From a virus: a stretch of 64,000 nt of DNA. The first letter of the stretch is position 1. Every line of letters begins with the position of its first letter. The position numbers and the translations under genes are program-made. The stretch covers positions 83,619-147,618 of the IMG/VR virus record IMGVR_UViG_3300042505_001173, one strand, 5' to 3'. This document shows positions 355 through 2,617 of the stretch, piece after piece. A model generated the notes under the pieces. That model saw only the letters and a program-made list of their open reading frames with translations, did no database searches and had not been told where the DNA came from.

Positions 355-1839
355 CTAAAAACTGATACTTTCGTATCTTGGAGAGTTAACAACCTCCATC
401 ATCATACCTTCAGGTGATAAAATCTCATCTTGCTCACCTGTTATATACTTCAAGATATTTGGACTAAAACCTGAAATCATACAGGTATTAGGAGTATTAT
501 GTACTACTGGAAAATTGCCAGAGTTAGCATTAACATTCCAGAATACTAACTTAGGAATTGTATATCCAGCAATTTCAAATGACGATCTAATTGTTTCATA
601 GAACGTTTCAACCGCTGAAGCTTTAATTTGACTACGAGTAATAGCATTAAATTCCATATCAGAAATGATATAAATTGTTCCAACCATATCACTAGGTGAC
701 AACTGATTAGTAATAGCTGCTTGTAGAATTAATTTAAACACTGCTTCAAGGTCTGTTGACATACCCCATTCAGCGTGTGAAAGATTATGAACCTTTTCAA
801 AGATATTATTACCTTTTAAATCTTGAATTCTTGGGGTTTCACTAAACGTAATGAATTTGTCACGATATGGACCTTTTGCTCGTTCAGCAAAATAAATTGC
901 TAACGATATACAAACTTCCATTGGAAGACCTGACATTGAACCACTAACATCAGCTACAACGATAGCGTTACTATCAACATCAATTTTTGGTAAGTTTTTC
1001 CATAAAATTTCTGCTTCATCTGGTTTAATGTCACTTGTCCAATTGTTTAAAATTTTACCAACGATTTGATATGGATATAAAGTACTAGCGTTAACATGAA
1101 CTTTCCCGTCTTTAGCTAATGTAATAAATTCTTCATAACGGGTAGCATCATTTCTTGCAAATGCTTTGCGATGTTTTAGTAAACATTGACTTGGTAACTT
1201 AGAATAAGTAATGGTATCCCATTGTTTAGCACTCATACGATTTTCAGCAACTTCAAGATATCTGTTCAAATTTGAACATAATTTACGATAATCTTTTGAT
1301 GATAGCCCAAAAGCTTTACGCGTTAAATTACCTAATCGGACTGATTCTTTACTTGAAGTATTGATACGTTTTAACCATTTACCTAAAATTGAAATAGGTT
1401 GATTTGATGTGATACCCTCAAGATCTCTACGTGATTGATCTTTCATTAAACTAAAAGCATATGATTCACAAGGTGTACCGACAACTGAATAAAGATCATC
1501 CCATCTTCCGTATTCAGCAACGAGGTCTAATAGGTTTTTTGTTTGATCTGGGTAGTTACGAGCAAGCCATTCTAATTGAATACGAAATGGTCTTCTTTGA
1601 CCTTGACCACCACGAATATCTCTAAACATGTACATTAACCGTACAGCAATTGTCTTTTCTTGTGCAAATGCACGTGTAAACAAACTTAAAATTTCACTTT
1701 CGGTTCTTGATCTAATTGATCCACCTTGAGCAAAGAAATCAACACAATTGTTTAAAGATGAATGGTTAGTAATAGCACCGTTTTGTGTTGTTGAATGATT
1801 CATTTGATTTGAAATCGCTGATAAGAATTTTTCGGTCAT
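355..1839 (-). CDS. TROVE/Ro60-like protein with C-terminal vWA domain (DUF2828-type)
   Basis: Motifs RDIRGGQGQR, YGRWDD, KWLKR; MIDAS DVSGSM, IISDMEF, FWNV. Start moved to MTEKF (1839) because GGAG lies at 1846-1849 and the upstream 24 codons overlap RNA stem-loops. Confidence 0.8.
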   Translation of the reverse strand: MTEKFLSAISNQMNHSTTQNGAITNHSSLNNCVDFFAQGGSIRSRTESEILSLFTRAFAQEKTIAVRLMYMFRDIRGGQGQRRPFRIQLEWLARNYPDQTKNLLDLVAEYGRWDDLYSVVGTPCESYAFSLMKDQSRRDLEGITSNQPISILGKWLKRINTSSKESVRLGNLTRKAFGLSSKDYRKLCSNLNRYLEVAENRMSAKQWDTITYSKLPSQCLLKHRKAFARNDATRYEEFITLAKDGKVHVNASTLYPYQIVGKILNNWTSDIKPDEAEILWKNLPKIDVDSNAIVVADVSGSMSGLPMEVCISLAIYFAERAKGPYRDKFITFSETPRIQDLKGNNIFEKVHNLSHAEWGMSTDLEAVFKLILQAAITNQLSPSDMVGTIYIISDMEFNAITRSQIKASAVETFYETIRSSFEIAGYTIPKLVFWNVNANSGNFPVVHNTPNTCMISGFSPNILKYITGEQDEILSPEGMMMEVVNSPRYESISF

Positions 1840-1849
1840 TTTGTACTCC

Positions 1850-2580
1850 AAGACATTAATTGTTAAATTGCGGATACTGTCTTTATAACTAGATGCATAA
1901 GTCATTTTCAATAATGAGTTGTTTAATTGCTGGAAGCATCTATAAGTGTTTAGGTTTTACCCTAAAAATATAAACTTGAAACAAACTTATATTTTTAAGA
2001 TCGAATGTTCCAACCAATACACCTCTAAGTCTGTCAGGACTTAGTTTATTTCATGGAGACTATTTTTAATCGCTGTATGTGCGGTTATTGGAACACCCAA
2101 TTTTTAAAAATATAGACCTGTTTTTAGCAACCCACATTCATTCCAATAAGATTAGATATGTAATTGCTGTAAGTGAGTTTTATAACAGGTCTACATCTGT
2201 ACATCAATATGAGGTTTTTCACGATGATCGATCACTTATTGTGACCATCAAACGTTTAACCTCTCTGCATTAAAATTATATGCTGTACTACACCTACTTG
2301 GAGGTGCCATCTTAAACCAAGATGGAGCAAGATCTTATTAACATTTTCGATTATTGCTGTTAAGATCTTTGATAAAAGAGCGGTCACGATCTAAATTTAA
2401 CATTTGCAGTGTTTATAAAATTGCTGTTGAGATCGTTGATTTTACTAATAACTTTCAAGACCTTATTCACGTTTTCGAGTATGAGTCGATTATTGTTGCA
2501 GTTAAGGTCTTACGTAAACTAGATTCTGTTTATGTGTTCAGATTAGAGGTCTGATATTAAATGGTTGCTGTTCGAATCTA
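1850..2580 (-). ncRNA. array of Y-RNA-like stem-loop units with conserved ACAGCAA motif
   Basis: Units at 2520-2580, 2457-2511, 2386-2436, 2329-2369, 2113-2193, 2006-2095, 1890-1942, 1850-1883 (weak ninth at about 2198-2292). Each has a 6-10 bp terminal stem, an ACAGCAA-like motif about 2 nt inside the 5' strand, then a variable loop. Confidence 0.8.
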
Positions 2581-2588
2581 TAAAACGT

Positions 2589-2617
2589 ATTATAATGATC
2601 TAAAAAAATTAAATCAA
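2589..2617 (-). promoter_or_regulatory. sigma70-type promoter for the RNA array and TROVE-like gene
   Basis: TTGATT-17-TATAAT; predicted start about 2581-2582, at the first stem. Confidence 0.8.

What the first reader, a model, noticed from the sequence alone, without database searches (positions are those of the whole stretch)
355..2617. Ro60/TROVE-like gene preceded by an array of Y-RNA-like stem-loops with a fixed motif and variable loops
Seen: about 730 nt between a TTGATT-17-TATAAT promoter and the gene are tiled by units, read here on the - strand: TAGATTC-GA-ACAGCAA..GAATCTA; AAGACCT-TA-ACTGCAA..AGGTCTT; ACGATCT-CA-ACAGCAA..AGATCGT; AAGATCT-TA-ACAGCAA..AGATCTT; TAGACCTGTT..CAC-TT-ACAGCAA..GTG..AACAGGTCTA; TGTTCCAA..CAC-AT-ACAGCGA..GTG..TTGGAACA; TAGATGC-TT-CCAGCAA..GCATCTA; AAGACA-GTA-TCCGCAA..TGTCTT. 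Stem sequences differ but stay paired, while the unpaired motif and its spacing are kept. That pattern points to selection on RNA structure plus a protein-binding site. Established: Ro60/Rsr (TROVE+vWA) binds the terminal stem of Y RNAs, which are often encoded nearby. Inference: a polycistronic precursor gives 8-9 small RNAs that load the phage Ro-like protein, each presenting a different loop (adaptor, decoy or guide). I know of no description of such an array.
Basis: partly seen in the sequence, partly recalled or inferred. Interest (0 to 1): 0.95.

Follow-up and report, generated by a model that had tools for sequence, protein, structure and literature searches.

The report
Ro60-like phage protein with partner-RNA array
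An uncultured large phage carries eight small hairpin RNA genes in a row, plus a ninth tRNA-like one 8 kb away, that all share one short "handle"; the handle travels with the neighbouring Ro60-like protein gene in very different phages, so it looks like an apparently unpublished cousin of the Ro60/Y-RNA particle.

Summary
The 790 nt between nrdB and a 494-aa DUF2828/DUF7788 gene (355-1839, minus strand) hold a good sigma-70 promoter and eight units. Each unit is a 7-bp closing stem, 2 nt, ACAGCAA or a near variant, a variable body, the 3' arm and a G.

A ninth unit (10571-10684) has its own promoter and terminator. Its body is a permuted tRNA-like domain that matches Rfam YrlA at 41 bits, below the threshold.

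A covariance model of the handle gave 145 hits in 79 other DUF2828 loci (810 kb). Of these, 144 lie on the gene's strand, and 110 lie within 500 nt of the gene. The model found nothing in T4, T5, SPO1 or Bxz1; Bxz1 has a true TROVE Ro60.

The protein model (pLDDT 89) matches only Ro60 structures at full length. About a third of family members carry anticodon-arm-like hairpins, roughly seven times the number in shuffled loops.

Most likely the RNAs are Y-RNA-like ligands of the Ro60-like protein that display tRNA parts.

I found no published description. The handle resembles Dictyostelium Class I RNAs. This scan had already noted the same system on other DNA, in at least 169 genomes.

The parts
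2589..2617 (-). Promoter of the array: -35 TTGATT, 17-nt spacer, -10 TATAAT. The -10 ends 8 nt before U1.
   Evidence: 10 of 12 consensus positions, the best match in the region.
2520..2580 (-). U1: handle plus a body with a 5-bp stem and the 7-nt loop CCUCUAA (anticodon-arm-like, with C at position 33).
   Evidence: R1 53.9 bits; orthologue in L005.
2457..2511 (-). U2: handle with the variant motif ACUGCAA. The body hairpin has the 7-nt loop CUCAUAC, like a tRNA-Met anticodon loop.
   Evidence: R1 48.0 bits.
2386..2436 (-). U3: handle; the body hairpin has the loop CUGCAAA, like a tRNA-Cys anticodon loop.
   Evidence: R1 31.5 bits.
2329..2369 (-). U4: a minimal unit of 41 nt, handle plus an 18-nt body.
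   Evidence: R1 42.9 bits.
2194..2328 (-). Spacer between U4 and U5 with other hairpins. The first (about 2303-2325) is kept in L005 with a compensatory change. Its role is unknown.
2113..2193 (-). U5: an inner handle (7-bp stem, UU, ACAGCAA) enclosed by a 10-bp outer helix that itself begins and ends like a standard handle stem.
   Evidence: R1 hit on the inner part, 23.9 bits; compensatory changes in both helices in L005.
2006..2095 (-). U6: an 8-bp outer helix, an internal loop, a short inner stem, AU, then ACAGCGA. The body has a 7-bp hairpin.
   Evidence: in the L005 orthologue the outer helix is replaced by a different paired sequence.
1943..2005 (-). Spacer between U6 and U7 with an A+U-rich hairpin of about 20 bp. 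A long hairpin sits at the same place in L005. It may be a double-strand RNase processing site (inference).
   Evidence: (repeat I4).
1890..1942 (-). U7: handle with the variant motif CCAGCAA. It is the only unit that the Rfam Dictyostelium Class I model aligns, and only weakly.
   Evidence: R1 52.3 bits; RF01414 16.1 bits, E 6.
1850..1883 (-). U8: the shortest unit (34 nt), with the variant motif UCCGCAA. The conserved G after its 3' arm is the first G of the Shine-Dalgarno GGAG (1849-1846), 10 nt before the ATG.
   Evidence: R1 30.2 bits; same layout in L005 and in some other loci.
355..1839 (-). Gene for a 494-aa DUF2828 + DUF7788 protein predicted to fold as a Ro60-like ring with a vWA domain. 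The MIDAS residues D297, S299, S301, T362 and D394 are invariant.
   Evidence: pLDDT 89.1, pTM 0.90; top 13 PDB matches are all Ro60, E 1e-8 to 2e-5, TM about 0.6.
285..316 (-). Hairpin plus T-run after the gene; the likely terminator of the array-gene unit.
   Evidence: Read. The scan did not list it, because the stem has too few G-C pairs for its rule.
10571..10684 (-). U9: the same handle closing a permuted tRNA-like body (T-arm, closed acceptor-like hairpin, D-arm), that is, a YrlA-type Y RNA.
   Evidence: (RF02553 41.2 bits, E 8e-8 in that small search, below the gathering score of 69).
10698..10726 (-). U9's own promoter: TTGATC, 17-nt spacer, TATAAT.
   Evidence: Read.
10527..10565 (-). 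Intrinsic terminator directly after U9.
   Evidence: Read.

Best explanation
The eight tandem units and the separate ninth unit are genes for small structured RNAs of one family.

What defines the family. The shared handle is a 7-bp helix that joins the RNA's two ends (consensus 5' WAGAYNC, 3' GNRUCUW followed by G). Two nucleotides after the 5' arm comes a single-stranded ACAGCAA. Inside the handle sits a freely variable body.

Proposed role of the handle. It is the docking site for the DUF2828 protein encoded next to it, which is predicted to be a Ro60-like ring with a vWA domain. Protein and RNAs would then form a Ro60/Y-RNA-like particle.

Proposed role of the bodies. They present pieces of tRNA. 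In this phage these are one whole permuted tRNA elbow (U9) and several anticodon-arm-like hairpins (U1-U3). The particle would use them to engage, titrate or recruit enzymes that act on tRNA, such as host anticodon nucleases or tRNA repair and processing factors.

Proposed expression. The array is probably transcribed from the promoter at 2617-2589 together with the gene and then cut into single RNAs. U8 abuts the ribosome-binding site, so protein bound there could also throttle its own translation.

Shown here: the anatomy, the covariation, the co-occurrence with the gene and the fold.

Inferred: binding, processing, the decoy or adaptor role, and autoregulation.
For: 1. Anatomy. Eight units lie between a promoter and the gene. 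No terminator-like site on their strand separates them from the gene.

2. Structure under selection.
- In 19 units, 97.7% of stem cells pair and all 7 pairs change on both sides; 0 of 500 shuffles reach this.
- In 133 distinct hits from other loci, 99.2% of cells pair. Sliding the 3' partner drops this to 25-51%.
- The relative at 81% protein identity keeps the array with compensatory changes.

3. Linkage to the gene.
- Model R1 gave 145 hits at E<=0.1 in 79 DUF2828 loci (810 kb). 144 are on the gene's strand, 110 are within 500 nt of the gene and none is inside it. 64 of the 79 loci have at least one hit.
- Whole-genome searches found hits only beside the gene in A511, UAB_Phi87 and Aegeus.
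- The same searches found none in T4, T5 or SPO1, which carry tRNA genes but no DUF2828.
- They found none in Bxz1, which has a true TROVE Ro60 and no DUF2828.
- In the phage's own 147.6-kb record only the nine units are real.

4. Tie to Y RNAs. U9 carries the handle around a YrlA-like tRNA mimic. By eye, the same design occurs in Bacillus phage 2S-4 and in Felix O1-like phages.

5. Fold. The AF2 model has pLDDT 89 and pTM 0.90. The 13 best PDB matches are all Ro60, including the Thermus phage Ro60 that binds two upstream Y-like RNAs (PMC12135203).

6. tRNA parts.
- 55 of 163 distinct units hold a hairpin with a stem of at least 4 bp and a 7-nt loop of the form Y-U-NNN-R-N. Shuffles give 7.6 +/- 2.5, with a maximum of 16.
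- 35 of 60 loci have tRNA genes within 5 kb, almost all co-oriented with the gene.
- In phage Skywalker the units fill the gaps between tRNA genes.

7. Biology of a family member. bas63_0130 is 33% identical to the window's protein and has handle RNAs in the neighbouring tRNA cluster. It is the gp130 reported to counter the Ppl defence system (preprint PMC11482910).
Against: - There is no expression, processing or binding data of any kind.
- The units used to build R1 were chosen partly because they pair, and alignment A3 was fitted to the model. Both inflate the pairing percentages. The strand bias, the position bias and the slide controls do not suffer from this.
- The stem is not free to vary. 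A, G and C are strongly preferred at several positions, so part of the 'covariation' is switching between a few allowed stems.
- 15 of 79 DUF2828 loci had no hit. Either the pairing is not obligatory or the model misses divergent handles.
- Only U1-U3 of this window's units have an anticodon-arm-like hairpin. U1 has C where tRNAs have the universal U33, and the stems of U2 and U3 are only 4 bp.
- The negative-control set is small: four phages.
Confidence: 0.72

Rival explanations
1. The handle RNAs are real small RNAs, but their partner is not the DUF2828 protein. A host factor or another phage factor recognises the handle, for instance a tRNA-processing or modification enzyme or an RRM protein like the one that binds Dictyostelium Class I RNA. 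On this view the gene linkage reflects a shared pathway or a shared operon only.
For: - The units sit inside tRNA operons in many phages.
- The only protein shown to bind a Class I RNA directly is the RRM protein Rnp1A (PMC7919456).
- 15 of 79 DUF2828 loci lack a detectable unit.
Against: - Tight, strand-specific adjacency to the gene also holds where no tRNA gene is within 5 kb. That is true of this window and its nearest relatives L012-L016.
- T4, T5 and SPO1 carry tRNA genes but have no handle.
- The Ro60 fold is a known Y-RNA binder, and a YrlA-type body carries the handle.
Confidence: 0.13
2. The array works mainly in cis, as a long structured 5' leader of the DUF2828 mRNA. The repeated handles are operator sites for autoregulation or mRNA stability, and no separate small RNAs are released.
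For: - There is no terminator-like site on the array's strand between the array and the gene, and one promoter stands in front of the array.
- U8's 3' end abuts the Shine-Dalgarno sequence.
- In 14 of 56 loci the last upstream unit ends within 40 nt of the start codon.
Against: - U9 is a free-standing unit 8 kb away with its own promoter and terminator.
- In other phages the units lie downstream of the gene (Staphylococcus, Mycobacterium) or between tRNA genes. There they cannot act as a leader.
- Eight different bodies are hard to explain as operators.
- This reading can coexist with the main one for U8 alone.
Confidence: 0.1
3. The units are DNA-level or chance features, such as protein-binding palindromes, recombination sites, terminators or decayed tRNA genes, and are not RNAs.
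For: The stems are short and A+T-rich sequence forms many hairpins. The relaxed pattern scan gave many chance hits.
Against: - The strand bias is 144 to 1.
- A fixed single-stranded motif sits on one side only, arm spacing varies from 11 to 91 nt, and no T-runs follow the stems.
- The feature is conserved from 21% to 50% G+C and across phages of four bacterial phyla.
- The covariance model gives no comparable hit elsewhere in 147 kb.
Confidence: 0.02

Closest known systems
Ro60 (Rsr, TROVE + vWA) with Y RNAs: bacterial and mycobacteriophage YrlA/YrlB (Rfam RF02553; Chen et al. 2014, PMC4201824) and Thermus phage phiLo Ro60 with Yrl1/Yrl2 (PMC12135203; PDB 9KOP, 9L5Y)
   Same: - The protein is a ring-shaped HEAT-like repeat plus vWA fold.
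- The small RNA genes lie next to the protein gene.
- The RNA ends pair into a stem that carries the presumed protein site.
- At least one RNA has a permuted tRNA-like domain (U9).
- Several RNAs serve one protein.
   Different: - The protein does not match Pfam TROVE by sequence and is 12-17% identical to solved Ro60s.
- The handle (7-bp stem, NN, ACAGCAA, 3' G) is unlike the YrlA outer stems. The RF02553 alignment starts only after the ACAGCAA motif (10669 against U9's 5' end at 10684) and marks the pairs of both outer stems as non-standard.
- The handle is absent from phage Bxz1, which has a true TROVE Ro60.
- The arrays are larger (8 + 1 here), and the bodies are often bare anticodon-arm-like hairpins.
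Dictyostelium Class I RNAs (Rfam RF01414; Kjellin et al. 2021, PMC7919456)
   Same: - The design is the same: RNAs of roughly 40-65 nt, with a short covarying stem joining the 5' and 3' ends.
- A conserved motif sits directly after the 5' arm and contains ACAGCAA (Rfam consensus).
- The rest is variable.
- The ends are conserved: AAG at the start and CUGU at the end in Dictyostelium; WAG at the start and CUW-G at the end here.
   Different: - The resemblance is by design only. The best unit scores 16.1 bits against a gathering score of 41.5.
- Class I RNAs are reported only from dictyostelids and have their own DUSE promoter.
- Their known direct binder is an RRM protein.
- I did not test whether dictyostelids have a DUF2828 protein.
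Bas63 gp130 (bas63_0130), reported to counter the Ppl defence system (PhageMaP preprint, PMC11482910)
   Same: - It belongs to the same protein family (33% identity).
- It lies next to a tRNA cluster.
- R1 finds handle RNAs in the gaps of that cluster.
   Different: - The preprint only guessed that some annotated tRNAs might be Y RNAs; it described no RNA partner.
- There the RNAs lie downstream among tRNA genes, not in a tandem array upstream of the gene.
- A role against Ppl is untested for this phage.
TROVE-domain particles of eukaryotes: TEP1 with vault RNA, and telomerase p80
   Same: A TROVE/vWA-type ring protein paired with small structured non-coding RNAs (general knowledge, not tested here).
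   Different: No sequence or RNA-motif relation was seen. These appeared in none of my searches.

Membership tests
Pfam DUF2828 (PF11443) + DUF7788 (PF25043) proteins | Matches to both profiles above the curated cut-offs | tested here: met
   DUF7788 183.5 bits (cut-off 27.1); DUF2828 110.1 bits (cut-off 29).
Ro60 / TROVE family (protein) | Sequence match to the TROVE domain (PF05731) | tested here: not met
   TROVE is not listed even at E<=10; the homologue-bearing phage Aegeus has no TROVE match, while Bxz1 does.
Ro60 / TROVE family (protein) | Ring of alpha-helical repeats closed by a vWA domain with a MIDAS motif | tested here: met
   pLDDT 89.1, pTM 0.90; ranks 1-13 are all Ro60 over about 520-580 alignment columns, TM 0.43-0.62; the DxSxS, T and D residues are invariant in 48 sequences.
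Ro60 / TROVE family (protein) | Binds Y RNA on the outer surface and misfolded RNA ends in the central hole | not testable with these tools
   Needs biochemistry or a structure of the complex.
YrlA-type Y RNA (Rfam RF02553) | Score at or above the gathering threshold of 69 bits | tested here: not met
   U9 scores 41.2 bits (E 8e-8 in a 451-nt search). Only the tRNA-like core aligns; the outer stems do not; no match for U1-U8.
YrlA-type Y RNA (Rfam RF02553) | Permuted tRNA-like domain (T-arm, closed acceptor-like hairpin, D-arm) inside a stem formed by the RNA's ends, encoded near the Ro-like gene | tested here: met
   This holds for U9 only. U9 lies 8.7 kb from the gene. U1-U8 have no such domain.
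Dictyostelium Class I RNA (Rfam RF01414) | Score at or above the gathering threshold of 41.5 bits | tested here: not met
   only U7 aligns, at 16.1 bits and E 6.
Dictyostelium Class I RNA (Rfam RF01414) | Short terminal stem, a conserved motif containing ACAGCAA directly 3' of the 5' arm, a variable remainder and conserved end nucleotides | tested here: met
   The Rfam consensus shown and the description in PMC7919456, compared with the family consensus.
Dictyostelium Class I RNA (Rfam RF01414) | DUSE promoter element about 60 nt upstream; occurrence in dictyostelids | tested here: not met
   Here the RNAs are in a phage, behind bacterial sigma-70-type promoters.
Handle RNAs linked to DUF2828 (the family defined here by model R1) | 7-bp terminal stem, 2 nt, ACAGCAA-like motif, variable body, 3' arm plus G; same strand as a DUF2828 gene and close to it | tested here: met
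   seven of the eight array units score 23.9-53.9 bits. U6 was confirmed by eye and through its L005 orthologue. U9 is matched only in part because of its long body.

The most novel reading that the evidence does not exclude
The DUF2828 ring and its handle RNAs form a modular display system. One conserved handle docks many interchangeable RNA bodies on a Ro60-like protein. The bodies copy tRNA parts (anticodon arms, the T/D elbow) in order to decoy host tRNA-cleaving defences or to recruit tRNA repair enzymes. The same handle in Dictyostelium Class I RNAs would mean the particle is ancient and shared between viruses and eukaryotes, which would give those unexplained RNAs a candidate partner.
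Probability: 0.3. Interest if true: 0.9.

Novelty: new variant of a known kind. Interest (0 to 1): 0.8.

Why it matters
Ro60 with its Y RNAs is a classic RNA-surveillance particle and a human autoantigen. Its role in bacteria and phages is only partly understood.

This work points to a second, sequence-unrelated branch of that particle. The protein family has over 700 hits in sequenced phages and until now had no known partner. The branch has its own RNA recognition module and RNA bodies that look like tRNA parts.

One family member is already reported to defeat a bacterial defence system (PMC11482910), so the RNAs are an obvious missing piece of that mechanism.

This phage is a good specimen. 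It has the largest array in my sample of 80 loci, although the model was trained partly on this window's own units. It also combines a bona fide tRNA-mimic member with minimal members, and one unit sits on the gene's ribosome-binding site.

The likeness to Dictyostelium Class I RNAs offers a testable lead for RNAs that have lacked a mechanism since 2004.

Tried and rejected
- Rfam at permissive thresholds over the array gave nothing useful beyond the weak Class I alignment. The gathering-threshold scan of the whole window found only tRNAs.
- RF02553 did not reach E<=0.01 on the tRNA-like units of phages 2S-4, UAB_Phi87 and Bas63. Their tRNA-like bodies rest on reading by eye.
- blastn of the array against 50,697 phage records found no match.
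- My relaxed pattern scans gave many chance hits and were replaced by the covariance model.
- The ACAGCAA sites at 12979 and 13823 near the tRNA genes lie in coding sequence.
- The R1 hit at G000 35062-35140 and a pattern hit at 81454-81600 lie in open reading frames and lack the motif or the 3' G.
- The profile search of PDB sequences found no Ro60. Only the fold comparison did.
- The protein-atlas look-up returned only DUF2828 clusters and said nothing about eukaryotes.
- Paper searches for DUF2828, for Ro-like or TROVE phage proteins and for anti-defence roles found no description of the RNAs.
No expression evidence could be sought, and read laying was not used.
- I considered integron attC-like sites, CRISPR-like arrays, terminators and pseudo-tRNAs. 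I rejected them on anatomy: variable arm spacing, a one-sided motif, no T-runs and no cloverleaf.
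Full report
WHAT IS THERE

The window is the last 64 kb of a 147.6-kb uncultured virus record from IMG/VR. 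On the minus strand, a ribonucleotide reductase small-subunit gene ends at 2631. A 494-aa gene runs from 1839 to 355.

The 790-nt spacer between them begins with a TTGATT-17-TATAAT promoter at 2617-2589. It is the best promoter match in the region, at 10 of 12 consensus positions.

I verified all of them in the sequence and in the inverted-repeat list:
- U1 2520-2580
- U2 2457-2511
- U3 2386-2436
- U4 2329-2369
- U5 2113-2193
- U6 2006-2095
- U7 1890-1942
- U8 1850-1883

Six units have a simple plan: a 7-bp stem, two nucleotides, ACAGCAA or a one- to two-base variant, a body of 11-38 nt, the 3' arm, then a G. U5 and U6 enclose this plan in a second, outer helix.

The units cover about 62% of the transcribed spacer. 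The two longer gaps contain other hairpins, among them an A+U-rich helix of about 20 bp just before U7.

No terminator-like site on the array's strand separates the array from the gene. A hairpin with a T-run follows the gene at 316-285.

The G after U8's 3' arm is the first base of the Shine-Dalgarno GGAG, 10 nt before the ATG.

A NINTH UNIT TIES THE FAMILY TO Y RNAs

A pattern scan of the window turned up one more exact handle at 10571-10684. It is intergenic and has its own TTGATC-17-TATAAT promoter and its own intrinsic terminator.

Its 91-nt body holds a T-arm, a closed hairpin and a D-arm, in that order. That is the permuted tRNA layout of bacterial YrlA Y RNAs.

Rfam's YrlA model aligns this core at 41.2 bits. 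E is 8e-8 in that small search, and the score is below the gathering score of 69.

The model's outer stems, where Rsr is thought to bind YrlA, do not align. The ACAGCAA handle stands in their place.

The rest of the 147.6-kb record holds no further unit. Two weak candidates lie in open reading frames.

IS IT MORE THAN CHANCE?

- Motif count. Exact ACAGCAA occurs four times in the spacer. Shuffles expect 8.5 in all 128 kb of both strands.
- Relative L005. A relative with 81% protein identity has the same array in the same place. Several stems are unchanged. The inner stem of U5 changed on both sides. The outer helices of U5 and U6 were replaced by different sequences that still pair.
- First alignment. 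I aligned 19 simple units from this window, L005 and four public phages. 97.7% of stem cells pair, all seven pairs show changes on both sides, and no shuffle of 500 reaches this. These units were picked partly because they pair, so the figure is biased upwards.
- Independent test with a covariance model. I built model R1 from that alignment and ran it on 79 other loci that encode homologues with 36-60% identity, 810 kb in all.
  - R1 gave 145 hits at E<=0.1. 144 are on the gene's strand and one is on the other strand.
  - 91 hits lie within 500 nt upstream of the gene and 19 within 500 nt downstream. None is inside the gene.
  - 64 of the 79 loci have at least one hit.
  - In these hits 99.2% of stem cells pair. 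Sliding the 3' partner by one to three columns drops this to 25-51%.
- Family consensus. It is WAGAYNC, NN, ACAGCAA ... GNRUCUW, G. C, G and C of the motif are invariant, and the 3' G is present in 99% of hits.

HOW WIDE IS IT, AND DOES IT FOLLOW THE GENE?

By eye and with R1, units lie next to the homologous gene in these phages:
- Bacillus phages 2S-4 and Skywalker, six units each. In Skywalker they fill the gaps between annotated tRNA genes.
- Listeria phage A511, three units.
- Enterococcus phage EF5, one unit.
- A Staphylococcus Sextaecvirus, three units directly downstream of the gene.
- Mycobacterium phage Aegeus, three G+C-rich units directly downstream.
- Campylobacter phage F336, two units.
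- Felix O1-like phages UAB_Phi87 and Bas63, at least four units each in the tRNA cluster. One has a tRNA-like body by eye.

Whole-genome searches give a clean split in a small set.
- A511, UAB_Phi87 and Aegeus have the gene, and have handle hits only beside it.
- T4, T5 and SPO1 carry tRNA genes but have neither the gene nor the handle.
- Bxz1 has a genuine TROVE Ro60 but has neither DUF2828 nor the handle.

tRNA genes lie within 5 kb in 35 of 60 loci, almost always co-oriented with the gene. This window and its nearest relatives are among the loci without close tRNA genes.

THE PROTEIN

- Pfam assigns DUF2828 and DUF7788. TROVE is not matched even at E<=10.
- I aligned 48 homologues. The vWA MIDAS residues are invariant.
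- AlphaFold2 on that alignment gives pLDDT 89.1 and pTM 0.90.
- Foldseek against the PDB puts Ro60 at ranks 1-13 over the whole length. These are Xenopus, human, Deinococcus Rsr and Thermus phage phiLo Ro60, with E 1e-8 to 2e-5, TM up to 0.62 and 12-17% identity. Lone vWA domains come only after them.
- The protein is therefore Ro60-like by fold and not a TROVE member by sequence.

WHAT THE BODIES LOOK LIKE

In this window three units hold anticodon-arm-like hairpins:
- U1: a 5-bp stem with the loop CCUCUAA.
- U2: a 4-bp stem with the loop CUCAUAC, the tRNA-Met type. Its orthologue in L005 reads CUCAUAA.
- U3: a 4-bp stem with the loop CUGCAAA, the tRNA-Cys type.

Across 163 distinct units, 55 hold a hairpin with a stem of at least 4 bp and a 7-nt loop of the form Y-U-NNN-R-N. 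Composition-preserving shuffles give 7.6 +/- 2.5, with a maximum of 16.

Together with the tRNA-elbow bodies, this supports the idea that the variable part presents tRNA pieces. I had noted the idea before looking at earlier notes of this scan.

MOST LIKELY MECHANISM

1. The handle docks the RNA on the Ro60-like protein. My confidence in this is about 0.7.
2. The body gives each particle a different tRNA-like face. It could serve as a decoy for tRNA-cleaving host defences or as an adaptor for tRNA repair and processing enzymes. My confidence in this part is about 0.3.
3. The array is probably co-transcribed with the gene and then cut. The long A+U helix may be a double-strand RNase site.
4. 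U8 on the ribosome-binding site could allow feedback control of translation. In 14 of 56 loci the last upstream unit ends within 40 nt of the start codon.

None of these steps has been shown.

COMPARISON WITH WHAT IS KNOWN

- Phage and bacterial Ro60 genes with adjacent Y RNAs are known (PMC4201824; PMC12135203). Those searches started from TROVE-annotated proteins, and their RNAs use a different protein-binding stem.
- The PhageMaP preprint reports that Bas63 gp130 has a Ro60-like structure and counters the Ppl defence system. It guesses that neighbouring tRNA genes might be Y RNAs (PMC11482910). I confirmed that gp130 belongs to this protein family and that handle RNAs lie in the gaps of its tRNA cluster.
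- Earlier notes of this scan pointed to Dictyostelium Class I RNAs, and I checked that lead.
  - The paper describes a short covarying terminal stem, a conserved 11-nt motif directly after the 5' arm, a variable remainder, AAG at the start and CUGU at the end (PMC7919456).
  - The Rfam consensus reads stem, CUU, ACAGCAA, UUA ... stem, UG.
  - The design matches closely. Only U7 aligns to the model, at 16.1 bits, so I do not claim membership.
- I found no paper describing the DUF2828-linked RNAs.

RELATION TO EARLIER FINDINGS OF THIS SCAN

The same protein-plus-handle system has already been noted on other DNA, in at least 169 genomes. All the numbers in this report come from my own calls.

What this window adds:
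- An unusually long tandem array. It gives seven R1 hits at E<=0.1, against a maximum of six in the 79 comparison loci, although R1 was trained partly on this window's units.
- Minimal and tRNA-mimic members in one genome.
- A unit abutting the ribosome-binding site.
- An instance with no tRNA gene nearby.

VERDICT

This is a new variant of the Ro60/Y-RNA kind, and I could not find it published.

Noticed in passing
window 10811-12010 (-): The phage encodes a sensor histidine kinase (PAS, HisKA and HATPase_c domains, 399 aa) directly upstream of U9. This is unusual cargo for a phage.
   Followed up: no
window 13421-13493 (-): Rfam reports a third tRNA-like sequence exactly at the gathering score (29.0 bits), next to tRNA-Pro. 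ARAGORN did not call it. It may be a degenerate tRNA or a tRNA-like element.
   Followed up: no
window 1950-1995 (-) and L005 about 3800-3880: A near-perfect A+U-rich hairpin of about 20 bp sits between U6 and U7. A long hairpin of different sequence sits at the same place in the 81% relative. It may be an RNase III-type processing site.
   Followed up: partly
window 2303-2325 (-) and L005 about 3468-3490: A small hairpin after U4 is kept in the relative with a compensatory change (stem CCAUCUU against CUAUCUU). No T-run follows it, and its role is unknown.
   Followed up: no
L008 5475-5618; L009 5510-5599; L097 4906-5180: Short 'hypothetical protein' CDSs annotated in public records overlap handle-RNA units: Aegeus gene 61, S-CoN_Ph4 CDS0145, and bas63_0137 and bas63_0138. 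They are probably mis-annotations.
   Followed up: partly
L024 4198-4275; L025 2518-2591; L038 1693-1767 and 1966-2040: Several DUF2828-bearing phage contigs carry tRNAs with a CUA anticodon, which ARAGORN calls 'Pyl'. They are probable amber suppressors, which hints at stop-codon recoding in those phages.
   Followed up: no
L027 484-768; L048 4505-4798: ARAGORN predicts tmRNA genes near the DUF2828 gene in two phage contigs.
   Followed up: no
window 9008-9739 (-) and 9818-10462 (-): A small nucleotidyltransferase (NTP_transf_2 / Pol-beta type) and a DUF6321 protein lie just downstream of U9. An RNA-tailing or CCA-adding-like role would fit the RNA theme, but I did not examine this.
   Followed up: no
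window 2631-6188 (-): The array sits at the end of a nucleotide-metabolism block: nrdA-like, a nucleoside 2-deoxyribosyltransferase-like gene, and nrdB.
   Followed up: no
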